A stretch of DNA of 32,000 bases from Pseudodesulfovibrio mercurii (GCF_000189295.2 NC_016803.1:3030001-3062000); one strand, 5' to 3'; shown: positions 1-14,286, counted from the first letter of the stretch. Notes: a model not told the origin generated them from the sequence alone. Numbers and translations: made by a program.

Positions 1-535
1 CGTCCAGGGACAGGGAAAAGTTCTCCTTCTCCGCCGTGTCGTCCATCTTGTTGAACAATTCCTCACGCTTGGCGTTGAACTTCTTGACGATGCGCTCGTG
101 CTTCTTCTGGAAGGTGTCCTTCTCGAACCGGGCCGGAATCTCCTGGCGGATATGGGCGATGGCCTTGGTCTGGGCCGTCTTGAACTTGCGGCCCCGGCCT
201 GCGGGCAGGGACACGGCGATGGGCTTGTCGCTGTCCTCGAAGTTGTACAGGTAGACCCAGTCCGCCGGGGGCGTGGCCTTGGCCGCGGCCGGTTTCAGGA
301 AGGACTGCACGAAATAGGTGCGCCCCATGTTCGGCTCGCCCGCCACGTACAGGTTGTGCTCGTTGCCCTTGATCTCAAGCGCCAGGGACAGGGCGTGGAT
401 CGCCCTGGGCTGGAGCCTGGAGTATACGTTCCGGGCCGGAACGTCGGCGCTGGTGGCGTAGGGAATGGTGGCCGGGTCCAGGGCCGCCCGCAGTTTGCTG
501 CCGGGCAACCCCTTGGGGAAGGTCTTCTGGGTCAT
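1..535 (-). CDS. Lon-related ATP-dependent protease family protein, N-terminal part (gene continues past the left edge)
   Basis: Absent from the ORF track because it runs off the window. Reverse complement from ATG 535-533 reads MTQKTFPKGLPGSKLRAALDPATIPYATSADVPARNVYSRLQPRAIHALSLALEIKGNEHNLYVAGEPNMGRTYFVQSFLKP... and stays open to position 1. An in-frame stop lies upstream at 587-589. The layout and the P-loop-like GEPNMGRTY resemble the N-terminal AAA-like domain of Lon-like proteases, judged from memory of the family. Confidence 0.6.
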   Translation of the reverse strand, partial: MTQKTFPKGLPGSKLRAALDPATIPYATSADVPARNVYSRLQPRAIHALSLALEIKGNEHNLYVAGEPNMGRTYFVQSFLKPAAAKATPPADWVYLYNFEDSDKPIAVSLPAGRGRKFKTAQTKAIAHIRQEIPARFEKDTFQKKHERIVKKFNAKREELFNKMDDTAEKENFSLSLD

Positions 536-583
536 GGGCTCTCGTTCAGGTTGATTTTGCGCGGCGTTTTCACCGTACCCCCG

Positions 584-612
584 AATCTAAGCCCTTTCCC
601 GCCGCTTGTCAC
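584..612 (-). promoter_or_regulatory. Candidate sigma-70 promoter for the Lon-like gene
   Basis: Minus strand reads GTGACA (607-612), a 17-nt spacer, then TAGATT (584-589), about 45 nt upstream of ATG 535. Hexamer matches only. Confidence 0.3.
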
Positions 613-708: not shown

Positions 709-739
709 AAAAAAAGGGCGGCCTCGCGTGAGGCCGCCC
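709..739 (-). terminator. Rho-independent terminator ending the 6505-764 operon
   Basis: Perfect 10-bp GC-rich stem GGGCGGCCTC / GAGGCCGCCC (716-725 and 730-739) with a 4-nt loop. On the minus strand a T7 run follows (A-run 709-715 on plus). It lies 25 nt downstream of the stop at 764-766. Confidence 0.85.
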
Positions 740-763
740 CTGGTTTGCCGGTCGAAGGTCCGA

Positions 764-2101
764 TCAGAGGCCGGTGCCCCGGAACAGGACCTTTTGCAGG
801 CCCAGGGACCACTGGCCCTTGGGGTAGCCCTGGCCCACGGCGTAGTGGTCCAGGGCGCGCTTGGTCTGTGGCCCGAACCGCTTGTCGATGGGGCCCTTGT
901 AGATGCCCAGTTCCCTGAGGCGGTTCTGGATCAGCTCCACGTCGTCCGGGAAGACCGGGTTGAGGAAGGCCAGGCCGCGTTCCAGAGGACCCTGGGCCGG
1001 GGCGCTGGCCACGGGGGCCGGGGCCGGGGCCGGTCGGGGCGCGGGCTGCGCCGCCGGGATGGCCTGGGGCGCGGACTGGGCGCGGGGAACGGCCTGCGGG
1101 GCCGGTTGGGGCGCGGTCCGGGCCTGCGGTGCGGGCGCGGTCCGGGCGGAGGCGGGCTCGGCGGTGCGCATGGGATCGATGACGTCGTCCGAGTACCCGG
1201 CCTGGGCCGTGCGCGGGGCCTCCTCAACGACCATGGGCCGTCTGGCGGGCTGCGGCTTGTCCGCGGGCTTGGAGTCCCAGCGGGCGATCTGCACGCGGTC
1301 GCGGTCCTTCTCGGGCATGCCGTTGCCCGGCGTGTAGTAGTAGTTGATGTAGAACCGGTCGCGGGAACTGGTGGGCGAGAACTTGGCCGCGAACATGTGC
1401 ACGCGCCAGCCCTGGAAGTCCATGTACCGCTCCTGGTTCTTGACGGAGTTGTCCGTGGCCCGCTTGGCGGTCCTGCGGTCGGAGACGATGGCCTCGAACT
1501 TGGCGTTCAGGGGCAGCCGGTTGCGCAGGAAGGACATGACCATGTAGTTCCCGGCCGGGGCGTCCGTCTGCGGCGGGGTGTAGGCGTGCTCGCGGGCCAG
1601 CCTGTACAGGGCGTTCCAGTCCGAGAAGACCTCGTAGGGGATGGTGGCGAAGGTCTCCATGGGCACGATGAAGACCTCGACCAGGGCCGTGGGCGGCGAG
1701 GCCGTGGCGGCCGCGCACCGGTTGACCCGGATGGCCGCGCCGTTGACCGTGTAGGTGGCCGCGAATTGCAGGGCCGTGAGGCGGCCGCTGCTGTCCGTGA
1801 GGTTTATCACGCCGGAGACGTCGGCGTCGTAGCGGTTGCCCACGCCGTGGTTGGCGTAGCCCACCAGGACGATCCGGCCCGTCTGGAAGGCGGCGTAGAA
1901 GCCGCTCCCCGCGCCTTCGATGGTGGCCTGGGTGCCGGGATCGAAGGTGATGTTCGCCAGGCCCGGCTGGCCCGTTGCCCGGCAGGCGACGGCGTAGGCC
2001 ACGTCGCGGGCGTCGGACGGCCACTGCTGGTCGGCCGCGGCCGCGGGGACGACCTGGCACAGGAGCAGGAGCAGGGCCGGGATGAGGAGTCTGATGCGCA
2101 T
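764..2101 (-). CDS. Exported protein: unknown N-terminal domain, long Pro/Ala-rich linker, C-terminal peptidoglycan-binding (PG_binding_1-like) domain. Paralog of 2745-3947.
   Basis: 445-aa ORF with ATG 2101 preceded by AAGGA. Signal peptide MRIRLLIPALLLLLCQVVPAAAA. C-terminus LNPVFPDDVELIQNRLRELGIYKGPIDKRFGPQTKRALDHYAVGQGYPKGQW fits the PG_binding_1 pattern. Blocks shared with the 2745-3947 product: EVFIVPMETF vs ETYFIPAEKF, and GWRVHMFAAKFSPTSSRDRFYINYYYT vs GWRILVAGGKFAPGSRRYKFYVGVTYK. Confidence 0.8.
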   Translation of the reverse strand: MRIRLLIPALLLLLCQVVPAAAADQQWPSDARDVAYAVACRATGQPGLANITFDPGTQATIEGAGSGFYAAFQTGRIVLVGYANHGVGNRYDADVSGVINLTDSSGRLTALQFAATYTVNGAAIRVNRCAAATASPPTALVEVFIVPMETFATIPYEVFSDWNALYRLAREHAYTPPQTDAPAGNYMVMSFLRNRLPLNAKFEAIVSDRRTAKRATDNSVKNQERYMDFQGWRVHMFAAKFSPTSSRDRFYINYYYTPGNGMPEKDRDRVQIARWDSKPADKPQPARRPMVVEEAPRTAQAGYSDDVIDPMRTAEPASARTAPAPQARTAPQPAPQAVPRAQSAPQAIPAAQPAPRPAPAPAPVASAPAQGPLERGLAFLNPVFPDDVELIQNRLRELGIYKGPIDKRFGPQTKRALDHYAVGQGYPKGQWSLGLQKVLFRGTGL

Positions 2102-2111
2102 GATGGGGTCC

Positions 2112-2717
2112 TTATTGCATGAAGATGCTTTCGTTGAGCGGTGCGGGGCCGCCGCCTCCGGGGGTGTAGGAGCTCATTTCCGGGATTTCGCTGTCCGGGC
2201 CCTTGAGGTTGGAGCCCATGTTGCCGATGAGCGCCTTCTGGTAGTCCTTCTTGGACTTGTCCAGCTTGTCCTTGGCGTCCCTGGTGAACTCGTACACGCC
2301 GTTGGCGGCCTGGAGGGCCTTGACCGTGGCCAGCAGCTGGGGGTTGCTGGCCAGGACCATCTCGATGATCTTGTCCTGGGTCTGGTCGATGACCAGCTTT
2401 TCGACGAACTCGTATTCCGGGGTGTTGTACCACGGGGTGTCGTTCTTGCCGGGTTTCTGGGTCGGCCGGCCTTCCGGGGTGTAGTAGCCGCCCCAGGTAC
2501 CGGGGGCGGGCTCCACGTATTCGCCTTCGATGCCGGTCTCGTAGGGTGTGGAGTCGATCCAGTCGGGGAGGTCCTGGCCCGTGGGGCCGCCGGTGGTGCT
2601 CTTTCCGACGTCGCCGCCTCCGCCGTAGGCGAAGGCCAGGGCGGGCAGGAACAGGCAGAGCAGGGCGGCCGCAAGGCCGAGACGCAGGTGTTTCGAGCGG
2701 GGATTGCCGTGTGACAC
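2112..2717 (-). CDS. Small secreted protein of unknown function with mature N-terminus YGGGGDVG (copy 2)
   Basis: 201-aa ORF with a GTG start at 2717, 7 nt after a perfect AAGGAG. Signal peptide ...LLCLFLPALAFA, then YGGGGDVGKSTTGG. Stop is 10 nt before the next gene's ATG. I recognise no known family. Confidence 0.75.
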   Translation of the reverse strand: MSHGNPRSKHLRLGLAAALLCLFLPALAFAYGGGGDVGKSTTGGPTGQDLPDWIDSTPYETGIEGEYVEPAPGTWGGYYTPEGRPTQKPGKNDTPWYNTPEYEFVEKLVIDQTQDKIIEMVLASNPQLLATVKALQAANGVYEFTRDAKDKLDKSKKDYQKALIGNMGSNLKGPDSEIPEMSSYTPGGGGPAPLNESIFMQ

Positions 2718-2744
2718 GAGGGTTCTCCTTTCCTGTGCGGGCGG

Positions 2745-3947
2745 CTATTGGCCGGTGCCCTTGAACAGCTCCTTCTGCACGCCCAGGGACCACTGCCCCT
2801 TGGGCAGGCCGTGCTGCTCGTTGAAGGTGTCCAGCGCCTTGCGGGTCAGGGGGCCGAAGTCGCGGTCGATCTTGTAGTTGTACAGCTTGAGTTCGTGCAG
2901 CCGGATCTGGATGACCTCCACGTCCTCCGGGAAGACCGGATTGAGGAAGCGCGCACCCGAGGCCAGGGGGCCTTCGGCGGCCTGCGCGGCGGGTTCGGCG
3001 GTCGTGGGTCCGGCGGCCGCCGTGGCCGGTTCGGCCTCATAGGGGCGCTTGACGTTGTGGAACTCGCCGACCACGACCTCGGGCAGGTAGGAACCGGTCT
3101 CCTGCTTGTAGGTCACGCCCACGTAGAACTTGTAGCGCCGGGAGCCGGGGGCGAACTTGCCGCCCGCCACCAGGATGCGCCAGCCGGAGTCGTTGATGGA
3201 CACGCCCTCGGCGAGCCGCTTGCCCGCGCCGTAGGGCCGGTCCGTGACCTTCATGGACAGGGTTGCCTCCTCGTAGATGCGGTCCTTGCAGAAGGTCAGG
3301 ATGTAGTAGTCGCCGGTCAGGCCTGCGGAGCTCTCGCCCTCGCCGTAGGTCATGGGTTCGGCGTTCTCGATGGCGAAGAGGTAGTAGTCCGTGTAGGAGA
3401 GCAGGGTGGACGCGGCCGCCTTGAACTTTTCCGCGGGGATGAAGTAGGTCTCCACCCTGGGGAAGTCGGGCGGGATGCCCGCGACCACGGACTTGGTGAT
3501 GTTGATGGTCCGCTGGCTGACCACGTACTGGGCGCAGAAGTACACGCCCGCGCGGCGGTTGATCATGTCCTTGAAAAGGATCAGCCCTTCGAGCATGGCC
3601 TGGACCTTGCCGGGCGCGAGTTCGGCGGTGATGTAGCCGGTCACGGCCACGTTCTTGACGTCGAAGCCGTCGTAGTTGAAGTCGAGTTCGCCCACGGAGT
3701 GCTGCCCGTCGGGGTCCAGGGTGACGTTCTCGACGCTGATGTGTCCGCCGCGCAGCCGTTCGATGAGGGCGGCGGAGACGAGCTTAATGTCGTCGAGTTT
3801 CTGTTCCGGGGCCGGGGGGATGACCTGGGGCGCGGGCACGTCCTTGGGCGGGGGCGGGGTCAGGGTCGCGGTCCCCGTGGGCGTGTCGCATCCGGCCAGG
3901 GCCAGGCTGCACAGCAGCGCGAGCAGGAATAAGCTGTATTTGCGCAT
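2745..3947 (-). CDS. Lipoprotein: unknown N-terminal domain, short Ala/Pro linker, C-terminal peptidoglycan-binding (PG_binding_1-like) domain
   Basis: 400-aa ORF. Lipobox in MRKYSLFLLALLCSLALAGCDT. C-terminus LNPVFPEDVEVIQIRLHELKLYNYKIDRDFGPLTRKALDTFNEQHGLPKGQW. Full-length paralog of the 764-2101 product. Confidence 0.8.
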   Translation of the reverse strand: MRKYSLFLLALLCSLALAGCDTPTGTATLTPPPPKDVPAPQVIPPAPEQKLDDIKLVSAALIERLRGGHISVENVTLDPDGQHSVGELDFNYDGFDVKNVAVTGYITAELAPGKVQAMLEGLILFKDMINRRAGVYFCAQYVVSQRTINITKSVVAGIPPDFPRVETYFIPAEKFKAAASTLLSYTDYYLFAIENAEPMTYGEGESSAGLTGDYYILTFCKDRIYEEATLSMKVTDRPYGAGKRLAEGVSINDSGWRILVAGGKFAPGSRRYKFYVGVTYKQETGSYLPEVVVGEFHNVKRPYEAEPATAAAGPTTAEPAAQAAEGPLASGARFLNPVFPEDVEVIQIRLHELKLYNYKIDRDFGPLTRKALDTFNEQHGLPKGQWSLGVQKELFKGTGQ

Positions 3948-3990
3948 GGATTATCGCCTTTGGTTGCTGGTTCGGTTCCGGGCCTCGAGC

Positions 3991-4827
3991 CTAGAGCTGG
4001 GGCGTGCCGCCCGCGATGGGCGTGGCGGGTGCGGACGACATGGGGTCGAACGACGGGTCCTGGACGTAGTTGGGCTGCTGGGCCATGTTCGGCGCGCCGA
4101 CGTAGTCCGCCAGTGTCTCCATGGCCTTGCCGATGCCCTTTTCCGTGGCGTAATCCGCAGTTTTCTTGATGCCGAACCGGGCAAAGGCCCGCTTGACCAG
4201 GGCCACCGCCCGGGTCTTGACCTGCTGGCTGACCGTGCTGCGGGCCACGTTGATGCCCGCCCTGGCCGTGTTGAAGGCCTGGTCCGCGTTCAGGGGCGAG
4301 AATCGGCCGACCAGGGTCGAGGCCCCGGCGCTGATGACCACGCCCTTGACGATGTCCTTGGTCCCCAGACCGTCGCGGTAGGCGTTGGCCCCGCCGCGCG
4401 CGGCACTCAGGGTGGCTGCCGTGACCCAGCCCACGCCGGGTACGAAGGACAGACCCTCCTGGGTGATCTCGCCCATCTTGTCCAGGACCTCCAGGGTCTT
4501 GACGCAGGCGTCGAGCATGGCGGCCTCGTTGTTGGCCGCGGCCGAGTTGTGTTCCAGGAAGACCTGGCGGATGGTCAGCAGGTCGCGCTTGGTGATGGTC
4601 GAGCCGGAGAAGGCCTGGACCAGGGTGTCGCGCTGCTGGGCCGAGGTGGAGCTGAAGATCTCCTGCAGCTCGGATTGGGTCCAGGGTTCGATGTTGGTGG
4701 AGGAGGAGGGCGGGCCTCCGACGTCGCCCCCGCCCCCGTAGGCCGAGGCCAGGGCCGGGATCAGCAGCAGGCCGAGCCCGAGCAGGCAGGCCAGTAATGC
4801 GCACAGTCCTCTAGTTTTGCATACCAT
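3991..4827 (-). CDS. Secreted protein of unknown function with mature N-terminus YGGGGDVG (copy 1)
   Basis: The ORF track gives 3991-4986. I place the start at ATG 4827 (MVCKTRGLCALLACLLGLGLLLIPALASA / YGGGGDVGGPPSS) because AAGGAG lies 6 nt upstream and the upstream extension overlaps the preceding gene's 3' end. 278 aa. Confidence 0.75.
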   Translation of the reverse strand: MVCKTRGLCALLACLLGLGLLLIPALASAYGGGGDVGGPPSSSTNIEPWTQSELQEIFSSTSAQQRDTLVQAFSGSTITKRDLLTIRQVFLEHNSAAANNEAAMLDACVKTLEVLDKMGEITQEGLSFVPGVGWVTAATLSAARGGANAYRDGLGTKDIVKGVVISAGASTLVGRFSPLNADQAFNTARAGINVARSTVSQQVKTRAVALVKRAFARFGIKKTADYATEKGIGKAMETLADYVGAPNMAQQPNYVQDPSFDPMSSAPATPIAGGTPQL

Positions 4828-4861
4828 GTTGTTCTCCTTGAATAAAAATGAAATATTTCCC

Positions 4862-6505
4862 CTATCTGCCGTCCGTGGCCATGGACTCGCCCAAGGCCCC
4901 CTCCGGGTCCGCGAGCTCCATGGATCGTTGCCTGTGTCTGGCATGGTCCGGGATGAACTCCGGGACCATGGCGGCCAGTTCCGCATGGCTGAAGCGGAAG
5001 AGCCGCAGGGGCGGACTGGACCGCCCGTCGTCGTCGATGTGGGTCAGGAAAATTTCGGTGAAGGGGGAGTTCCCCTTGGAGGCGAAGGCCAGCCAGCGCG
5101 AGTTGGGCGACCATGTGTGCCAGGAGTTCATCAGCTTCGTGTTGGCCGCGAGCACGTGCGCCTCGCCGCCTTCGGCCGGGACGATGGCCAGCCGGGCGTC
5201 GGGCTGGAGGACCAGGCCGGTGGCGCACTGGGTGAAGGCCAGCCAGCGGCCGTCCGGCGAGTACTTGGGAAAGACGTTGCTCAGGCCGTTGTTCGAAGCC
5301 CCCTCGATGGGCCGCGCCTCACCGCCCCGGCCTCCGTCGAAGGGCACGGACCAGAGGTCGAACTGGATGGGATACTTGGCGTTGGCGGTGCGGATGTCCT
5401 GGGCGGGGTCCTCCTTGCGCAGGTCGCCGGCCACGATCCTGGCCACGAGGTCGGGCTGGACGTCGGCCCGGGCGAAGGCCAGCCGGGTGCCGTCCGGGGT
5501 GAAGGACGGGTTGGTCTGCACAAAACGGGTGTCGTCCGCTCCGGGCAGGGGGGCCACCGCGCCGGTCCCGCGGTCGAGGATGGCGATCTGGCCAGTGGCC
5601 GGGTAGAACATCTGGGAGAAATAGAGGTCGTCGAGCATGATGAAGGCCGAGGTCTCGCCCACGGTGGAGGCGGCGAAGCGACCGTCCGGGGACAGGCTGG
5701 TGAACAGCCCCATGCTGTAGGCGGCGGGCTTGGGCGGGACGTAGGCGTTCCAGGAGACCACGTCGCGGTCGGTCAGGGAGACCCGCTCGGTCACGTCCAC
5801 CAGGGCGTAGCCGCCCTTGTCCCCCTTGTAGTCCATGTCCATGCCGTAGGTGGACCCGTCCAGGGAATAGGCGTGGCAGTTGAAGCACACGGGCACGTCC
5901 TGCATGACGATGCGCGGCCTGCCGTACTCCGTGAGGTCGCCGACGACCACCTGGCTGTCGTGGGGATTCTTCTGGGCAGTGCGGAAGGGCAGCCGCTTGC
6001 GCAGGAAGGAGAGCAGCGCGGCCACGGGCTCGTCGCACACGGCGAAGGAGGTCGCGCCGGAGGAGACCAGACGGTCGTCCGGGCCGATGCCCGCGATGCG
6101 GGCCTCGATGGTCCTTTCGCCCGCTGCGGCCCGGATGCGCTCCCACAGGCCGCGCTCGGGGACCCAGTACGGGGCGTCCAGGAGCCCCTTGCACAGGGGC
6201 TCGCCGTCCACGCTCAGGGTGATCAGCCAGGCTTCGGCGGCGGGGTCCTCCCAGCGCAGGATGGGCGAGGCCGCGTCCACCGGGATGAGCGTGCCCGGAG
6301 CGGGTTCCAGGACCTTGACCGGGGTCGGCGCGTCCGCCGGGACGAGCCGTTCCACGGCCTGGGCCAGGGTGGTGCCCTGCGGCAGGGCGATTTCGGCGGC
6401 GCGGAAGAGCGGATAGGCCCCGGCCCGGACGGGCGGCAGGAGCAGGAGGCAGAGCAGGAGGAGAAGGGGGGGAGTCCGTCGGGGGGCTAAGCGGCGCGGC
6501 AACAT
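4862..6505 (-). CDS. Exported TolB-like (PD40/WD40-like beta-propeller repeat) protein carrying one CxxCH motif
   Basis: Start chosen at ATG 6505 (AGGAGAAAGC upstream), giving MLPRRLAPRRTPPLLLLLCLLLLPPVRAGA as signal peptide. Repeated PD40-like motifs: SPDGRFAAS, TPDGTRLAFA, SPDGRWLAFT, SPNSRWLAFAS. CFNCH is encoded at 5873-5887. Confidence 0.75.
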   Translation of the reverse strand: MLPRRLAPRRTPPLLLLLCLLLLPPVRAGAYPLFRAAEIALPQGTTLAQAVERLVPADAPTPVKVLEPAPGTLIPVDAASPILRWEDPAAEAWLITLSVDGEPLCKGLLDAPYWVPERGLWERIRAAAGERTIEARIAGIGPDDRLVSSGATSFAVCDEPVAALLSFLRKRLPFRTAQKNPHDSQVVVGDLTEYGRPRIVMQDVPVCFNCHAYSLDGSTYGMDMDYKGDKGGYALVDVTERVSLTDRDVVSWNAYVPPKPAAYSMGLFTSLSPDGRFAASTVGETSAFIMLDDLYFSQMFYPATGQIAILDRGTGAVAPLPGADDTRFVQTNPSFTPDGTRLAFARADVQPDLVARIVAGDLRKEDPAQDIRTANAKYPIQFDLWSVPFDGGRGGEARPIEGASNNGLSNVFPKYSPDGRWLAFTQCATGLVLQPDARLAIVPAEGGEAHVLAANTKLMNSWHTWSPNSRWLAFASKGNSPFTEIFLTHIDDDGRSSPPLRLFRFSHAELAAMVPEFIPDHARHRQRSMELADPEGALGESMATDGR

Positions 6506-6546: not shown

Positions 6547-6560
6547 ACGTTGGGCAACGT
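6547..6560. promoter_or_regulatory. Palindrome ACGTTG-GG-CAACGT in the AT-rich region upstream of the cassette (candidate operator)
   Basis: Perfect 6-2-6 inverted repeat, 42-55 nt upstream of ATG 6505, inside the only AT-rich stretch of the 6506-6691 spacer. I could not call clean -35/-10 hexamers. Confidence 0.3.
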
Positions 6561-6603
6561 TAATATCCTGAATGAATTTTGGCAAGGAATAAGCGAATGT
6601 CCG

Positions 6604-6619
6604 ATACCCGTTCGGGTAT
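6604..6619. other. Short inverted repeat ATACCCG-TT-CGGGTAT between fliQ and the cassette
   Basis: 7-bp arms seen directly, about 70 nt downstream of the fliQ stop. No T-run follows on the minus strand, so it is not a canonical terminator. Confidence 0.3.
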
Positions 6620-6691: not shown

Positions 6692-6961
6692 CTAGCGGAT
6701 GTAGTTGGGCAGGTTCAGGAAGAGATTGGTGGTGTACGCGGTCATCTTGTCCATGATCCAGGGGAAGGCCAGGAGCAGGGCCAGGAAGATGGCGATGATC
6801 TTGGGCACCATGGTCAGGGTCATCTCCTGGATCTGGGTGGCGGCCTGGATGATGGAGATGAAGATGCCCACAATCATGCCGATGCCGAGCATGGGCAGGG
6901 AGATGATCAGGGTCATCTCGATGGCCTGTCTGGCGAATCCGACGACGAATTCCGGTGTCAT
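6692..6961 (-). CDS. fliQ: Flagellar type III export apparatus protein FliQ
   Basis: Start set at ATG 6961 (GGAGGG upstream) rather than the ORF-track 7015. 89 aa: MTPEFVVGFARQAIEMTLIISLPMLGIGMIVGIFISIIQAATQIQEMTLTMVPKIIAIFLALLLAFPWIM..., typical FliQ. Confidence 0.93.
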   Translation of the reverse strand: MTPEFVVGFARQAIEMTLIISLPMLGIGMIVGIFISIIQAATQIQEMTLTMVPKIIAIFLALLLAFPWIMDKMTAYTTNLFLNLPNYIR

Positions 6962-7043
6962 TTCAGGCCCTCCTTGCCGGGGCGGTTGAGGTTGCGGGGA
7001 GGTCTTCGGACGCACCGCTCCCCGGGCAACACGGTGCGCGTGG

Positions 7044-9385: not shown

Positions 9386-10111
9386 TCAATAGCCGCCGAT
9401 GGGCCGGGCGGTCTTGAGCAGTATCTCCACCCGCCGGTTCCTGGGCGAGGCCACGGGCCGGCCCAGTTCGTTGATCACCGGGAAGGCGTCGCCGTAGGCG
9501 GACAGGGAGAATCGCGAGTCGTGCACGCCCTTGTCCACCAGGAAGGCGAGCACGGCCAGGGCGCGGTCCCCGGACAGTTCGAGCGGGGTCTGGGTCGCGT
9601 CCGAGGCGTCGGTGTACCCGGCCACGTTGATGGGCGCGTCGGTCTGGGTCATCATCGGCACCAGACGGGCCATGAGGAATTTGCCCGTGTCGGACAGCTC
9701 GGACCCGCCCGGGGCGAATAAAATCCGGTCGGTGAAGACCAGGGCAACGCCGTCCTGCTTGGCCAGGACGTCGAGGTTGTCGTTCAGTTCGGCCTTGCTG
9801 ATCTCGTCGGGCAGGATGTCGTCCGGGAAGAGCAGGTCCTTGATGCGCTGCTGTTTGTCCAGGACCTCCCACGGCTTTTCCATGAGCTCGACGATGAGCC
9901 GCTCCTTGGCGTTGACCCGGCCCGAGCCGCGCTTGTCGAGCAGGCCGAGGTCCGCGGTGGTCAGGGTGACCTTGGTCAGGATGGAATTGTCCATGGAGGC
10001 CATGGTCAGGAGCAGGACGAAAAAGGTCAGCAGCAGGGTCATCAGGTCCGAGAACGTGACCAGCCACAGGGCGATGGGCGGGCAGGGCGCTTCCTTCTTT
10101 TTCTTGCCCAT
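9386..10111 (-). CDS. MotB-like stator protein, second paralog (OmpA-like C-terminal domain)
   Basis: 241 aa. N-terminus MGKKKKEAPCPPIALWLVTFSDLMTLLLTFFVLLL has the MotB TM segment with the conserved Asp. C-terminus VAGYTD...SGDRALAVLAFLVDKGV...NRRVEILL is OmpA/MotB-like. Starts 2 nt after the preceding motB stop. Confidence 0.85.
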   Translation of the reverse strand: MGKKKKEAPCPPIALWLVTFSDLMTLLLTFFVLLLTMASMDNSILTKVTLTTADLGLLDKRGSGRVNAKERLIVELMEKPWEVLDKQQRIKDLLFPDDILPDEISKAELNDNLDVLAKQDGVALVFTDRILFAPGGSELSDTGKFLMARLVPMMTQTDAPINVAGYTDASDATQTPLELSGDRALAVLAFLVDKGVHDSRFSLSAYGDAFPVINELGRPVASPRNRRVEILLKTARPIGGY

Positions 10112-10113
10112 GG

Positions 10114-10935
10114 CTATTGCAGCTCCTTGGGCGTGGACACGTCGAACTCGAAGCCGTCCACGCTCATGGCGTCCCGGCGGTCGGGCACCACGGGCATGGT
10201 CTCGACGATGCGGTCGCTCAGGCGGCTGGAGCGCTTGTCCAGGACGATGTCAACCCGCCGGTTGCGGGCCCGGTTCTCCGGGGTGTCCGGCGGATAGTGC
10301 GGCCGGTACTTGCCGAACCCCTCCACGCGGAGCATGTCCGGGCTCATGCCCTTGTCGAGCAGGTAGCGGTAGATGGCCAGGGTCCGGTTCAGGGAGAGCT
10401 TCCAGGAGAGGTCCGGGTTGCGGCTGTCGTCGCCGGGCTGGTAGTTCATGCCGAGCTCGTCGCGCAGGTCCGAGGTGTGCCCGGCCAGGAGCAGGGGGTA
10501 CTTGACCTGTTCGAGCAGGGGCAGGAAGCGGTCCAGGGTGGCCCGCCCCTCGGGGCTCAGGGTGTAGCCGTCCGGGCCGAAGAGCAGGCTCGCGTTGATG
10601 GACAGGATCTGGACGAAGCGGCTGGAGGAAAAGTTGATGTCCTGGCTCACGTTCTCCCATTTCAGGGACTGGAGCGGCTCCAGGTCGCCGGTGTCGATGG
10701 GGCCGGGCTCCACGGTCTTTTTGGTGTCCTTCTGGGAGAAGGTGTCGTAGCCGGCCTGGTTGAAGCCGAAGGTGCCGATGATGGAGCCGAGCGCCACCAG
10801 CTTGCGCCGCTGGTCGATGGTGGCCATGGACACGAGCAGGATGAAGAAGGTCAGCATGAGGGTCATGCAGTCCGCGAACGTGACCATCCACAGCGGCATC
10901 TCCTCGCAGTTCCGTTTTTGCTTCTTCTTGGCCAT
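10114..10935 (-). CDS. motB: Flagellar stator protein MotB
   Basis: 273 aa. MAKKKQKRNCEEMPLWMVTFADCMTLMLTFFILLVS (TM segment with Asp). C-terminal OmpA-like domain LAGHTS...LSLNRTLAIYRYLLDKGM...NRRVDIVL. Directly downstream of motA. Confidence 0.9.
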   Translation of the reverse strand: MAKKKQKRNCEEMPLWMVTFADCMTLMLTFFILLVSMATIDQRRKLVALGSIIGTFGFNQAGYDTFSQKDTKKTVEPGPIDTGDLEPLQSLKWENVSQDINFSSSRFVQILSINASLLFGPDGYTLSPEGRATLDRFLPLLEQVKYPLLLAGHTSDLRDELGMNYQPGDDSRNPDLSWKLSLNRTLAIYRYLLDKGMSPDMLRVEGFGKYRPHYPPDTPENRARNRRVDIVLDKRSSRLSDRIVETMPVVPDRRDAMSVDGFEFDVSTPKELQ

Positions 10936-10959: not shown

Positions 10960-11721
10960 TTAGTCGGAGACGATCCTGTCCTTGGGCGGCAGGTAGCTGT
11001 TCAGCTTCTCCTCGATGATGCGCGGGTTCTCGCCCTTGGAGATGGACAGGATGCCCTCCATGATCATCTCGCGCAGCAGGACCTCCTCCTTGCTGCGCGC
11101 CTTGAGCTTGCCCGCCATGGGCATGAGCACGAGGTTGGCGATGATCGCCCCGTACAGGGTGGTCAGGAGGGCCACGGCCATGGCCGGGCCGATGGAGGAC
11201 GGGTCGCTCATGGTCTGGAGCATCTGGACCAGGCCGATGACCGTGCCGATCATGCCCATGGCCGGGGCCAGGGTGCCCAGGGCCGAGACCACGTCCGCGC
11301 CGGTGGCGTGCCGCTCGGCCAGGTAGGAGATCTCGGTCTCCAGGATCTCCTGGATTGTCTGGGGCTCCAGGCCGTCCACGGTCAGCTGCAGCCCCTTGCG
11401 CATGTAGTCGTCGTCGATCTCCTTGATGAGCGGCTCAAGCGACAGGATGCCCTCGCGGCGGGCGCGGTTGGCGTAGTCCTTGAAGCGGTCGATGACCTCG
11501 GCCGGGGAGTCCAGACTGGAAAAGAAGGTGTTCTTGATGACCCCGATGACGCCGATGACGTAGTTCATGGGGTAGTTGACCAATCCGGCCCCGATGGTGC
11601 CGCCCACCACGATGAGCAGGGAGGGCACGGACACGAAGATGATCAGGCTGGAGCCCGTCATGATGGCCGACAGGACCAGTCCGAAGGAGAGGACGATGCC
11701 GATTATGGTACCCAGATCCAT
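10960..11721 (-). CDS. motA: Flagellar stator protein MotA (MotA/PomA family)
   Basis: 253 aa. MDLGTIIGIVLSFGLVLSAIM..., and C-terminal TMs with MGMIGTVIGLVQML and AVALLTTLYGAIIANLVLMPMAGKL, typical of the MotA/TolQ/ExbB family. Confidence 0.93.
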   Translation of the reverse strand: MDLGTIIGIVLSFGLVLSAIMTGSSLIIFVSVPSLLIVVGGTIGAGLVNYPMNYVIGVIGVIKNTFFSSLDSPAEVIDRFKDYANRARREGILSLEPLIKEIDDDYMRKGLQLTVDGLEPQTIQEILETEISYLAERHATGADVVSALGTLAPAMGMIGTVIGLVQMLQTMSDPSSIGPAMAVALLTTLYGAIIANLVLMPMAGKLKARSKEEVLLREMIMEGILSISKGENPRIIEEKLNSYLPPKDRIVSD

Positions 11722-12960: not shown

Positions 12961-14091
12961 TTAGGCGGGGGTGACGATGGCGTGGATGGTGCGGACGAGT
13001 TCGGGTTCGCCCTGGGCGGCGTAGGTTTCGTACAGGGACATGATGGTCGCCTGGGAGTAGACGTAGTTGCGGAACTGCTTGAACGGCTTGGCCTTGAGGT
13101 CGGCCTGGGAGATTTTGTAGTCGCGCACGGCCACCTTTTCGAGGACGGGCAGGACCCACTGGTTGGCGGGCACGGTCAGGACCCAGTCGTGGTCGCCGAG
13201 GTGGGTGACGAACCCTTCCTGGCGGCGGGGCAGGGGCAGGGTCCTGCCGTCGGCGGCGAGCAGGCCGTAGGCCACGGGATCGACGCCCGCGATGATGGAC
13301 GCGGCGGTCAGCCAGCCGACCACTTGGGCCTCGTCCTGTTCGGTGCGCGGGTGGTTGTGGGCGCAGGCCTGGGCCACGACGACCTCGGCCGGGACGCCCC
13401 GGTGGATGGACTCGGCCACGCCCAGGGGGTGGTGCTCGCCGGTTCCGGCCAGGGAGCGCTCGGTGCGGGACTCGCCGTCCGCGTTCCACTGGAAGACCCA
13501 GGGCTTGTGCAGGTCGTGCAGGAGCTGGGCGGCGATGACCACGTCGCGGTCGAGCATGTAGTCGTAGACCTCGCGGTAGCCGTCGTACAGGGCCATGGAC
13601 ACGCGGGTGTTCAGGCCGGTGTGGGTGCACAGCCCGCCGGGGTAGGCGTGGTGGCTGGAATAGCCGGAGCCGGGCGCGGAGCGGAAGGGCTGGGGCGCGT
13701 TGGCCGGGTCGGCCGAGGGCGGCAGGAAGTCGGCCTCGGAGACGTCCTTGATCAGCCCCTTGGCGGCCAGCTCCTTGTGGATGGCCTGCTTCTCGGACGC
13801 GCCGATACCCTTGGTGACGGTGGGCGCGGGGTTGTTCAGGATTTCCCGGACCTGGGCGCGCAGGGCCGGGTTGCGGATGGCCGCGGCGGCCTGGAGGATG
13901 GACTCCCAGGAGGCGGACACCGGGCCCGAGGCGTCGGCCATGGCCTCGGGAGTCATGGCCAGACACTCGTCCAGGGTCACGGCGGACGGGGCGGCCTGGG
14001 CGCGCACGGGCAGGGCGGTGATCGCGGCGGCGGCCCCGGCCAGGGCCCCCAGTTTCAGGAAATCACGACGATTAAGAGCTTCGGAAGACAT
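12961..14091 (-). CDS. Tat-signal-bearing HD-domain metal-dependent hydrolase family protein
   Basis: Start placed at ATG 14091 (AAGGAGAAAACA upstream), giving MSSEALNRRDFLKLGALAGAAAAITALPVRAQA, a twin-arginine signal. His/Asp motifs SHHAYPGGL, LLHDLHKPW and GEHHPLG are consistent with an HD-type metal site. Confidence 0.65.
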   Translation of the reverse strand: MSSEALNRRDFLKLGALAGAAAAITALPVRAQAAPSAVTLDECLAMTPEAMADASGPVSASWESILQAAAAIRNPALRAQVREILNNPAPTVTKGIGASEKQAIHKELAAKGLIKDVSEADFLPPSADPANAPQPFRSAPGSGYSSHHAYPGGLCTHTGLNTRVSMALYDGYREVYDYMLDRDVVIAAQLLHDLHKPWVFQWNADGESRTERSLAGTGEHHPLGVAESIHRGVPAEVVVAQACAHNHPRTEQDEAQVVGWLTAASIIAGVDPVAYGLLAADGRTLPLPRRQEGFVTHLGDHDWVLTVPANQWVLPVLEKVAVRDYKISQADLKAKPFKQFRNYVYSQATIMSLYETYAAQGEPELVRTIHAIVTPA

Positions 14092-14286
14092 TGTTTTCTC
14101 CTTGAATGCAGATAGGTTGTATGATCTCGTGACCATACCCCGCCCTTTGGTCGGCAGCCTGACGAACGGGTGACGGAATGTGCCCCGCGCATGGAGAATG
14201 GGTCACAGCCGGGCCGGGCCGGGCATTGCACCGGGACGGAAAATAGGAGAAAATGACCGTTTCACCCATTATCCATATAAAGAGGC

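What the first reader, a model, noticed from the sequence alone, without database searches (positions are those of the whole stretch)
764..6505. Uncharacterised five-gene, all-exported cassette following fliQ, where fliR/flhB would normally sit
Seen in sequence:
- Five co-directional genes have 10-43 nt gaps. An AT-rich leader with a palindrome lies upstream and a strong terminator (709-739) downstream, so this is probably one operon.
- Every product carries an export signal: three Sec signals, one lipobox, and one Arg-rich Sec-type signal.
- The first gene encodes a TolB-like PD40 propeller with a CxxCH motif.
- A two-gene module then appears twice. Each module is a secreted protein with mature N-terminus YGGGGDVG followed by a protein with an unknown ~300-aa domain and a C-terminal PG_binding_1-like domain.
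- The two PG-binding proteins are full-length paralogs. One is a lipoprotein; the other is a soluble periplasmic protein.

Established knowledge: periplasmic flagellar accessory rings in other lineages (Vibrio MotX/MotY/FlgT, Campylobacter PflA/PflB/FlgP) are built from PG-binding and beta-rich periplasmic proteins. FlgT has TolB-like domains.

Inference: this could be a lineage-specific periplasmic scaffold tied to the adjacent fli/mot genes, or an independent Tol-Pal-like envelope module. I recognise no named system with this composition.
Basis: partly seen in the sequence, partly recalled or inferred. Interest (0 to 1): 0.8.

Follow-up and report, generated by a model that had tools for sequence, protein, structure and literature searches.

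The report
Uncharacterised cell-envelope gene cassette beside fliQ
The five exported genes after fliQ in Pseudodesulfovibrio mercurii are real and match no named system, but related genomes show a self-contained cell-envelope cassette that sits next to flagellar genes only in this genus, so a flagellar role is unlikely and its function is unknown.

Summary
Five co-directional minus-strand genes (764-6505) have 10-43 nt gaps, and each product has an N-terminal export signal. A 12-bp-stem terminator follows the last gene. The genes encode:
- a PD40 propeller with an invariant CxxCH motif;
- two small proteins whose mature N-terminus is YGGGGDVG;
- two full-length paralogs (BLASTP E=1e-43), each with an unknown ~280-aa beta-rich region, a Pro/Ala linker and a PG_binding_1 domain.

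The window is Pseudodesulfovibrio mercurii ND132.

The flagellar reading is not supported. The conserved unit is the propeller plus one to three pairs of small Tyr-polyGly protein and peptidoglycan-binding (lipo)protein. I found it in 12 loci:
- directly after fliQ in 5, all Pseudodesulfovibrio-clade;
- two opposite-strand genes away from fliQ in 1;
- with no flagellar gene within up to 9 kb in 5;
- undetermined in 1.

A sigma-70-like promoter element (CTTGCCAWAW) precedes the propeller gene in all 7 clade loci, whatever lies upstream.

The pair also occurs without the propeller in more distant lineages. Neither novel family matches Pfam, NCBIfam or PDB.

Best reading: an autonomous, peptidoglycan-anchored periplasmic complex that resembles Tol-Pal in logic only. 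Its function is unknown.

The parts
6604..6619 (-). Perfect palindrome ATACCCGAACGGGTAT about 20 nt upstream of the -35-like element. It could be an operator or a weak hairpin after fliQ.
   Evidence: Read. It is retained (weakened) only in the closest relative L002, not in the other clade loci. No T-run follows it, so it is not a canonical terminator.
6557..6586 (-). Candidate sigma-70-type promoter of the cassette: invariant CTTGCCAAAA (-35-like TTGCCA at 6580-6585), a 17-nt spacer, then TAACGT (6557-6562).
   Evidence: CTTGCCAWAW occurs once in the window (0.09 expected by chance). It occurs once per locus, 55-81 nt upstream of the g1 ATG, in 7 of 7 Pseudodesulfovibrio-clade loci. These include L001 and L005, where fliQ is not the upstream gene. 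The -10 in the window is weak, and the simple consensus scan did not call it.
4862..6505 (-). g1: exported 547-aa protein with an N-terminal domain, a PD40 beta-propeller and the conserved C-terminal tail ...GESMATDGR. It is a putative mono-haem c protein.
   Evidence: PD40 E=6.2e-14. TolB equivalog model 27.8 bits against a cut-off of 343. More than 1475 homologs. PDB profile hits cover only the propeller blades. The tail subfamily coincides with presence of the pair genes in 12 of 12 loci (plus the context calls).
5873..5887 (-). Codons for C207-F-N-C210-H211, a CxxCH haem-c attachment motif in g1.
   Evidence: C207, C210 and H211 are invariant in an alignment of 13 homologs at 37-69% identity, including TPR-fused planctomycete forms. 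Haem attachment itself was not testable.
3991..4827 (-). g2: small exported protein (278 aa). It has a signal peptide, then Y30-GGGGDVG, then an all-helical body with the conserved motif SFVPGVGWVT...AARGGANAYRDG.
   Evidence: 39 homologs, none named. Alignment. AF2 gave mean pLDDT 51, helical but unreliable. No Pfam or PDB match.
4717..4740 (-). Codons for YGGGGDVG at the predicted mature N-terminus of g2.
   Evidence: Identical 9-mer AYGGGGDVG in g2 and g4. 44 of 55 family members have Tyr plus a Gly run after the signal peptide, and 17 of 55 have GGGD[VI]G.
2745..3947 (-). g3: lipoprotein (lipobox LAGC20; 400 aa). It has two beta-rich domains (about residues 47-158 and 164-297), a Pro/Ala linker and a C-terminal PG_binding_1 domain (residues 341-382, nt 2802-2927).
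   Evidence: Pfam PG_binding_1 26.6 bits. AF2 mean pLDDT 74, domains about 85. Foldseek against PDB returned only Fab light chains with TM below 0.3, so no real match. No Pfam hit for the N-terminal region in 20 diverse members.
2112..2717 (-). g4: small exported protein (201 aa). It has a signal peptide, then Y31-GGGGDVG (nt 2604-2627), then a Gly/Pro-rich body unrelated to g2.
   Evidence: Orthologs precede the g5-type protein in L001, L003, L005, L015 and L016.
764..2101 (-). g5: exported, non-lipoprotein paralog of g3 (445 aa) with a longer Pro/Ala linker and PG_binding_1 (residues 386-417, nt 851-946).
   Evidence: BLASTP against g3 E=1e-43. PG_binding_1 29.0 bits.
714..741 (-). Intrinsic terminator closing the cassette.
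   Evidence: 12-bp stem (9 GC pairs), 4-nt loop, TTTTTT tail.

Best explanation
The cassette is an autonomous operon for a periplasmic, cell-wall-anchored protein assembly. It is not a flagellar component.

Shown:
- The evolutionary unit is a two-gene pair. The first gene encodes a small exported protein whose mature end is Tyr followed by a glycine run (often GGGDVG). The second encodes a cognate large (lipo)protein with two novel beta-rich domains, a Pro/Ala-rich spacer and a peptidoglycan-binding domain.
- The pair is present in 1-3 tandem copies.
- In Desulfovibrionales it is always accompanied by one propeller protein of a specific subfamily, with an invariant CxxCH and a C-terminal SMATDGR tail.

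Inferred:
- Each large subunit is fixed in the envelope by its lipid anchor and/or its PG_binding_1 domain, and holds its own small subunit through the beta-rich domains. Co-duplication and consistent pairing of types support this.
- The single propeller is the shared third component. It probably docks on a feature common to all pairs, and the conserved Tyr-polyGly N-terminus is the obvious candidate. TolB binding Pal and the glycine-rich N-terminal epitopes of colicins is a precedent (my own knowledge).
- The propeller probably carries one c-type haem. It could therefore add a redox or sensing function.

The position after fliQ reflects inherited gene order within one genus.
For: Conserved core and variable copy number:
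- One pair: L004, L006, L007, L010, L017.
- A remnant second pair: L002.
- Two pairs: window, L001, L003, L015, L016.
- Three pairs: L005.
- Sources.

Pairing and association:
- g2-type pairs with g3-type and g4-type with g5-type in L005, L015 and L016.
- In L010 the pair is a separate, convergent transcription unit next to g1, so the association survives rearrangement.
- Pairs without g1 occur in L011, L012 and the P0235 contig.
- g1 proteins with the SMATDGR tail were found with pairs in 12 of 12 loci. The two tail-less homologs examined (L008, L009) lack pairs.

Independence from flagellar genes:
- No flagellar gene lies within the sequence available (up to 9 kb) in L001, L006, L007, L010 and L017.
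- Two opposite-strand genes are inserted between fliQ and g1 in P. portus.
- The promoter element CTTGCCAWAW is conserved in 7 of 7 clade loci.
- By inspection, a sigma-54 GG-N10-GC arrangement is seen in only one locus (L001). No sigma-28 motif is seen in the window leader.

Envelope location:
- All five products have export signals.
- All 20 diverse large subunits tested have PG_binding_1.
- 44 of 57 candidate family members have a lipobox-like motif, by a crude regular-expression count.
- CxxCH is invariant in g1.
Against: - There are no functional data of any kind. No paper mentions the locus tags.
- Subunit contacts are inferred from gene order only. No multimer prediction was possible, and the g2 model is unreliable (pLDDT 51).
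- Adjacency to fliQ holds in 5 of 6 Pseudodesulfovibrio-clade genomes that have both. No canonical terminator separates fliQ from g1 in the window, so read-through co-transcription is not excluded.
- The promoter's -10 is weak in the window.
- Haem binding is unverified.
- Whether the Tyr-polyGly end is a binding epitope or just a flexible tether is open. Three to five homologs have Cys in place of Tyr in a lipobox-like context, which favours a tether.
Confidence: 0.55

Rival explanations
1. It is a lineage-specific periplasmic flagellar accessory, such as a stator or basal-body scaffold analogous to MotX/MotY/FlgT or PflA/PflB/FlgP. It would be expressed with the motA-motB-motB2-fliLNOPQ cluster in Pseudodesulfovibrio.
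For: - The cassette lies directly downstream of fliQ, on the same strand, in the window, L002, L003, L015 and L016.
- No canonical terminator lies between fliQ and g1.
- Known motor scaffolds are built from peptidoglycan-binding and beta-rich periplasmic proteins (established knowledge; review PMC7990780 listed).
Against: - The same cassette, at 47-65% g1 identity, sits in five unrelated neighbourhoods with no flagellar gene within the sequence available, up to 9 kb.
- P. portus has two opposite-strand genes between fliQ and g1.
- A promoter of its own is conserved irrespective of the upstream gene, and it is sigma-70-like rather than sigma-28 or sigma-54.
- There are no Pfam hits to FlgT, MotY-type OmpA, FlgP or TPR scaffold families.
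- Adjacency among congeneric genomes is weak evidence, because gene order is inherited.
Confidence: 0.12
2. It is a periplasmic redox enzyme or sensor. The CxxCH propeller would be the catalytic haem subunit, and the pairs would serve as cell-wall anchors or substrate-presenting partners.
For: - CxxCH is invariant over more than 1475 homologs' worth of divergence, as sampled.
- His463 in the motif NSWHSWSPN is also invariant and is a possible distal ligand.
- One distant large-subunit relative (P0325) replaces PG_binding_1 with a cytochrome P460-like domain. This is a second link to haem proteins.
- Propeller haem enzymes are well known, for example cd1 nitrite reductase and hydrazine synthase (my own knowledge).
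Against: - There is no sequence similarity to any solved haem propeller enzyme.
- No redox partner, cofactor-maturation or electron-transfer genes lie in the cassette.
- Pairs exist without g1 in other lineages, so the pair's role cannot depend on the haem protein.
Confidence: 0.15
3. It is an array of exported toxin or bacteriocin genes with cognate protective lipoproteins. The small proteins share a conserved N-terminal trafficking region and have divergent bodies. Each is followed by a partner gene, and the copy number varies.
For: - g2 and g4 share only the signal peptide plus the Gly-rich N-terminus, with unrelated bodies.
- Pairs occur in tandem arrays of 1-3 copies.
- Bodies of the g2 type have Gly/Ala-rich, moderately hydrophobic helices.
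- Glycine-rich disordered N-termini that bind TolB are the hallmark of group A colicins (my own knowledge).
Against: - The putative 'immunity' partners are large (about 400 aa), homologous to each other and peptidoglycan-anchored. That is unlike immunity proteins.
- Small-subunit orthologs are stably conserved across genera (38-70% identity) rather than polymorphic.
- There is no secretion system, lysis gene or mobile-element signature.
- PHROG gave no hits beyond weak PG_binding_1-region matches to endolysin families. Anti-phage defence models (PADLOC) were not searched.
Confidence: 0.06

Closest known systems
Tol-Pal system (TolB propeller with the Pal peptidoglycan-binding lipoprotein)
   Same: - It combines a periplasmic PD40-type beta-propeller with a lipoprotein that binds peptidoglycan non-covalently.
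- TolB also recognises glycine-rich disordered N-terminal epitopes, the colicin TolB boxes. This is a precedent for the proposed g1 binding to Tyr-polyGly (my own knowledge).
   Different: - g1 fails the TolB equivalog model (27.8 bits against a cut-off of 343) and gives no Pfam hit other than PD40 and a sub-threshold DPPIV_N match.
- g1 has an invariant CxxCH that TolB lacks.
- The lipoprotein uses PG_binding_1, not an OmpA-like domain.
- There are no tolQ/R/A or cpoB genes in the unit.
- It adds a small Tyr-polyGly subunit and variable tandem copy number.
Periplasmic flagellar scaffolds (Vibrio MotX/MotY/FlgT; Campylobacter PflA/PflB/FlgP)
   Same: They are exported, beta-rich and peptidoglycan-binding proteins. 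In this genus the cassette is also encoded next to mot/fli genes.
   Different: - There is no homology to any of those families.
- The cassette occurs away from flagellar genes in 5 of 11 informative loci.
- It has its own sigma-70-like promoter.
PG_binding_1 domain proteins such as SleB and L,D-transpeptidase N-terminal domains
   Same: The C-terminal ~60 aa of g3 and g5 match PF01471 above threshold. They also match the SleB PG-binding domain structures 6tci and 4fet.
   Different: No catalytic domain is attached. The remainder is a novel two-domain beta-rich region.
Haem-containing beta-propeller proteins such as cytochrome cd1 nitrite reductase and hydrazine synthase subunits
   Same: They combine a propeller with a c-type haem motif in an exported protein of anaerobes.
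   Different: - There is no detectable sequence relationship.
- g1 has a single CxxCH lying next to or inside the propeller region, rather than a separate cytochrome domain.
- No structure model of g1 was made.

Membership tests
TolB (Tol-Pal system) | Score above the curated cut-off of the TolB equivalog model TIGR02800 | tested here: not met
   27.8 bits against a cut-off of 343.15. Only residues 404-493 align.
TolB (Tol-Pal system) | N-terminal TolB_N alpha/beta domain preceding the propeller | tested here: not met
   The Pfam scan of g1 returns only PD40 and a sub-threshold DPPIV_N hit. PDB profile hits to TolB cover propeller blades only.
TolB (Tol-Pal system) | Encoded with tolQ-tolR-tolA and pal/cpoB | tested here: not met
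   The neighbours are mot/fli genes or unrelated genes in all 12 loci. No OmpA-type Pal or TolA is present.
Pal / OmpA-like peptidoglycan-binding lipoproteins | OmpA-like domain (PF00691) | tested here: not met
   g3 and g5 match PG_binding_1 only.
PG_binding_1 domain proteins (PF01471) | Pfam score above the gathering threshold | tested here: met
   g3 scores 26.6 bits and g5 29.0 bits against a cut-off of 23. 20 of 20 diverse family members match, best E=3.4e-13.
PD40 / WD40-like beta-propeller proteins | Repeated PD40 units | tested here: met
   PF07676 E=6.2e-14 with 3 stretches. Homologs carry precomputed Tricorn_N, Tricorn_2nd and PD40 hits.
c-type cytochromes | Conserved CxxCH haem-attachment motif in a Sec-exported protein | tested here: met
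   C207, C210 and H211 are invariant in 13 homologs. The signal is Sec-type with no TAT_signal hit.
c-type cytochromes | Covalently bound haem | not testable with these tools
   This needs haem staining or mass spectrometry of the purified protein.
Flagellar periplasmic scaffold proteins (FlgT, MotX, MotY, FlgP, PflA/B) | Sequence membership in the respective families | tested here: not met
   No Pfam or NCBIfam hit to any of them at E<=1 for the five proteins.
Flagellar periplasmic scaffold proteins (FlgT, MotX, MotY, FlgP, PflA/B) | Consistent genomic or regulatory linkage to flagellar genes | tested here: not met
   Linkage occurs only within the Pseudodesulfovibrio clade. Five loci have no flagellar genes. 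The promoter is sigma-70-like.
Flagellar periplasmic scaffold proteins (FlgT, MotX, MotY, FlgP, PflA/B) | Location at the motor and a motility phenotype | not testable with these tools
   This needs mutants and cryo-ET.
Bacterial lipoproteins | Lipobox [LVI][ASTVI][GAS]C at the end of the signal peptide | tested here: met
   g3 has L17-A18-G19-C20. A lipobox-like motif occurs in 44 of 57 candidate family members. g5 has none.

The most novel reading that the evidence does not exclude
The pair defines a previously unrecognised kind of envelope module. The invariant mature N-terminus of its small subunit (Tyr followed by polyglycine, often GGGDVG) would be a new sorting, docking or attachment signal. 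It could be read by the CxxCH propeller, or used to link the protein to peptidoglycan or the outer membrane through its free N-terminus, as N-terminally peptidoglycan-linked outer-membrane proteins are in some alpha-proteobacteria. In Pseudodesulfovibrio such a wall-anchored, haem-bearing assembly might additionally have been recruited to the neighbouring stator cluster, which has two MotB paralogs.
Probability: 0.15. Interest if true: 0.7.

Novelty: new variant of a known kind. Interest (0 to 1): 0.42.

Why it matters
- If the inferred assembly is real, it adds a new way of tethering proteins to the cell wall in sulfate-reducing and related anaerobes. It has three parts: a haem propeller, a Tyr-polyGly subunit and a peptidoglycan-binding lipoprotein.
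- It defines two new protein families: the ~280-aa two-domain region, with about 80 clusters at 50% identity, and the Tyr-polyGly small proteins.
- It flags a widespread CxxCH propeller family (more than 1475 homologs) with no known function.
- It removes a tempting mis-annotation. The genes should not be labelled flagellar, or TolB, on the basis of position or PD40 repeats.
- It does not bear on a long-standing open question, and nothing about function is shown.

Tried and rejected
1. Foldseek of the g3 model against PDB returned only antibody light chains with TM below 0.3 and rmsd about 15 Å. I rejected these as generic two-beta-domain noise. The g2 model (pLDDT 51) was too poor to search.
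2. PDB profile searches gave only propeller blades for g1 and the SleB-type PG_binding_1 domain for g3. The WD40 'hits' to a 25-column stretch, with no stretch passing the E-value threshold on its own, were discarded as repeat artefacts. Nothing was found for g2.
3. Pfam, NCBIfam and PHROG scans of the five proteins, and of 20 diverse members of each novel family, gave no family for the novel regions.
4. The genome-collection scan found only 4 loci. The metagenome scan found only 2, one a 1.5-kb fragment. Neighbourhoods were therefore collected by exact-protein look-ups.
5. Sigma-54 reading of the invariant TTGC: a GG-N10-GC arrangement is present only in L001, so I rejected it. No sigma-28 -10 element (GCCGATAA) is seen in the window leader by inspection.
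6. Tat export of g1: there is no TAT_signal hit, and c-type cytochromes are Sec substrates, so I rejected it.
7. Literature searches for the locus tags, TolB plus CxxCH, Desulfovibrio motor scaffolds and ND132 fitness data returned nothing relevant. The E-ring review (PMC13023049) concerns FlgY/FlbB, which are unrelated.

Full report
**Source and layout.** The window is Pseudodesulfovibrio mercurii ND132: g3 is identical to DND132_2725 and g2 to DND132_2726. On the minus strand the gene order is as follows.
- yggS, then motA (10960-11721), motB (10114-10935) and a second motB (9386-10111).
- fliL, fliN, fliO, fliP, then fliQ (6692-7015).
- A 186-nt spacer.
- g1 (4862-6505), g2 (3991-4827), g3 (2745-3947), g4 (2112-2717) and g5 (764-2101).
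- A terminator at 714-741, followed by a LonC-type protease gene that runs off the window.

**Check of the observation.**
- The gaps between the five genes are 34, 43, 27 and 10 nt.
- The terminator has a 12-bp stem and a T-run.
- The leader is AT-rich and holds the palindrome ATACCCGAACGGGTAT at 6604-6619.
- Each product has a single N-terminal hydrophobic segment.
- g3 has the lipobox LAGC20.
- g2 and g4 have A-x-A followed by YGGGGDVG.
- g1 has three PD40 repeats (E=6.2e-14) and CFNCH at residues 207-211.
- g3 and g5 carry PG_binding_1 above threshold and are paralogs over their full length (E=1e-43).

One correction is needed. g2 and g4 share only the signal peptide and the Gly-rich N-terminus, by BLASTP and by profile-profile comparison. 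Their bodies belong to different families.

**The unit that is conserved.** I collected neighbourhoods with a genome scan and exact-protein look-ups. They show one propeller gene followed by a variable number of small-plus-large pairs.

| Pairs | Loci |
|---|---|
| One | L004, L006, L007, L010, L017 |
| One plus a remnant | L002 (P. karagichevae); g4 is gone and g5 lacks its first domain but has a new signal peptide |
| Two | window, L001, L003, L015 (P. indicus), L016 |
| Three | L005 (P. portus) |

- The type of small protein matches the type of large protein wherever it could be scored.
- In L010 the pair is transcribed convergently to g1 yet stays adjacent to it.
- In more distant lineages the pair occurs without g1. 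It appears as two tandem pairs in L011 and in L012, and as one pair on the P0235 contig.

The primary unit is therefore the pair. The propeller is a constant companion in Desulfovibrionales.

**The g1 subfamily.** Within the large g1 family (more than 1475 hits), the members found with pairs all end in ...S-M-A-T-D-G-R. The two tail-less homologs I examined, L008 (next to CsgG-like genes) and L009 (a TPR fusion), have no pair.

**Relation to flagellar genes.**
- The cassette follows fliQ directly in five loci, all from the Pseudodesulfovibrio clade.
- In P. portus an FAD oxidoreductase gene and an unknown gene lie between them on the opposite strand.
- In L001, L006, L007, L010 and L017 no flagellar gene lies within the sequence available, up to 9 kb.
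- L004 is uninformative because its contig starts inside g1.
- Upstream of g1, the decamer CTTGCCAWAW is present exactly once per locus, 55-81 nt before the start codon, in all seven clade loci. These include L001 and L005. In the window it occurs once against 0.09 expected.
- With a 17-nt spacer and TAnnnT downstream in six of the seven, it reads as a sigma-70-type promoter.
- By inspection, a sigma-54 GG-N10-GC arrangement is seen in only one locus (L001), and no sigma-28 motif is seen in the window leader.
- No canonical terminator separates fliQ from g1 in the window, so some read-through cannot be excluded.

**The proteins.**
- **g1.** C207, C210 and H211 are invariant in 13 homologs down to 37% identity, including TPR-fused forms. 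H463 is also invariant. g1 is probably a mono-haem c protein exported by Sec. It is not TolB (27.8 bits against a cut-off of 343; no Pfam hit beyond PD40 and a sub-threshold DPPIV_N match).
- **g3 and g5.**
  - AF2 gives a usable g3 model (mean pLDDT 74). It has two alpha+beta/beta-rich domains (about residues 47-158 and 164-297), a disordered Pro/Ala linker and the helical PG_binding_1 domain.
  - Foldseek against PDB finds nothing credible.
  - An exhaustive profile search of 1.84 billion representatives finds 117 hits at E<=1e-30. About 80 of the best 150 span the novel region; the rest are multi-repeat PG_binding_1 proteins.
  - All sampled relatives are unnamed metagenomic 'hypothetical proteins'.
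  - One lineage (P0325) replaces PG_binding_1 with a cytochrome P460-like domain.
- **g2, g4 and relatives.**
  - 44 of 55 have Tyr plus a Gly run directly after the signal peptide.
  - Two have His at that position.
  - Three to five have Cys in a lipobox-like context.
  - 17 have GGGD[VI]G, including members of the distant L012 locus.
  - The g2 body is predicted helical at low confidence. Its strongly conserved motif is SFVPGVGWVT...AARGGANAYRDG.
  - There are no Pfam or PDB matches.

**Mechanism.** What is shown: co-inheritance, co-duplication and type-consistent pairing of the small and large subunits; their export; the peptidoglycan-binding domain; the companion propeller with a conserved haem motif; and a promoter of its own. 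The rest is inferred.
- The large subunit is fixed to the wall and/or a membrane and binds its cognate small subunit.
- The propeller serves all pairs, perhaps by recognising the shared Tyr-polyGly end. TolB recognises Pal and glycine-rich colicin epitopes in a comparable way (my own knowledge).
- The haem may add a redox or sensing role.
- The Tyr-to-Cys replacements suggest that the glycine run may also simply be a flexible tether next to a membrane anchor.

I put about 0.55 on 'autonomous wall-anchored periplasmic assembly, not flagellar', and much less on any detail of how it works.

**Rivals.**
- A genus-specific flagellar scaffold (0.12) has only congeneric synteny in its favour.
- A haem enzyme or sensor with wall anchors (0.15) fits the invariant CxxCH and the P460 fusion. 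It does not explain pairs that lack g1.
- Toxin-immunity arrays (0.06) fit the shared N-terminus, divergent bodies and variable copy number. They do not fit the large, mutually homologous, wall-bound partners or the stable orthology.

**Comparison with known systems.** The closest analogy is Tol-Pal: a periplasmic propeller plus a peptidoglycan-binding lipoprotein. Every defining feature of membership that I could test failed. The only family memberships met are generic: PD40, PG_binding_1, lipobox and the CxxCH motif. I file the cassette as a new variant of wall-anchored periplasmic propeller/lipoprotein assemblies, built from two undescribed protein families. If the Tyr-polyGly end proves to be a new sorting or attachment signal, it would deserve a stronger label.

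**Verdict.** This is a real, well-delimited and uncharacterised cassette. The flagellar framing that made it look exciting is not supported. Interest is moderate at 0.42.

Noticed in passing
window 9386-10935 (-): Two tandem MotB paralogs follow a single MotA. Both have MotB_plug plus OmpA domains and share about 26-28% identity with each other. The arrangement is conserved in every Pseudodesulfovibrio-clade locus that includes this region: L002, L003, L005, L015 and L016. One stator channel gene with two alternative plug/anchor subunits is unusual.
   Followed up: partly
L002 10293-11258 (+), P. karagichevae: A natural deletion variant. g4 and the first beta-rich domain of g5 are missing, yet the remaining g5 (321 aa: domain 2, linker, PG_binding_1) has acquired a new signal peptide, MMRTKSIVFILSLLLTWTVSAHA. 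This suggests the truncated protein is still exported and used.
   Followed up: partly
protein P0325 and its cluster of 20 marine metagenome members, including TARA samples: The novel two-domain region of g3/g5 is fused to a C-terminal cytochrome P460-like domain (PF16694, E=1.8e-5, just below threshold; CISCH near the C-terminus) in place of PG_binding_1.
   Followed up: partly
L011 5379-7004 (+): A 541-aa relative of the small subunit carries about 20 tandem NPGGNQNT repeats between the His-polyGly N-terminus and the conserved C-terminal ...AKRGGANQNEA motif. It is a very Gln/Asn/Gly-rich low-complexity insert.
   Followed up: no
L008 4825-9677: A tail-less g1 homolog (45% identity) lies in an apparent operon with a TPR-CsgG fusion, a second CsgG-like gene and a 366-aa protein with weak LpoB/CsgG similarity. 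The wider CxxCH-propeller family may therefore work with other periplasmic or outer-membrane lipoprotein assemblies.
   Followed up: partly
window 6604-6619 (-): The perfect 16-nt palindrome ATACCCGAACGGGTAT lies about 20 nt upstream of the -35-like element. It is shared, in weakened form, only with the closest relative. It may be an operator for a species-specific regulator or a weak hairpin after fliQ.
   Followed up: partly
g1 C-terminus, window 4865-4885 (-), and homologs P0029-P0071: A strictly conserved C-terminal heptapeptide S-M-A-T-D-G-R marks exactly the g1 subfamily that travels with the pair genes. A second subfamily ends in ...GNVR. The function of these tails is unknown.
   Followed up: partly
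window 12961-14136 (-): A 391-aa protein has a Tat signal but no other Pfam domain. It is conserved beside yggS/motA in L016, and a 376-aa gene with no Pfam hit occupies the same position in L005. It is uncharacterised.
   Followed up: no
L012 4658-6058 (+): A 466-aa polytopic membrane protein with a C-terminal LuxR/GerE helix-turn-helix lies directly upstream of two g1-less pairs. It is a candidate membrane-bound regulator of the module in that lineage.
   Followed up: no
window 1-612 (-): A LonC-type (AAA_32/LonC_helical) protease gene follows the cassette on the same strand in the window, L002, L005 and L016. It has its own promoter-like site at 584-612. It is replaced by a LysR regulator in P. 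indicus, so it is probably not part of the unit.
   Followed up: partly
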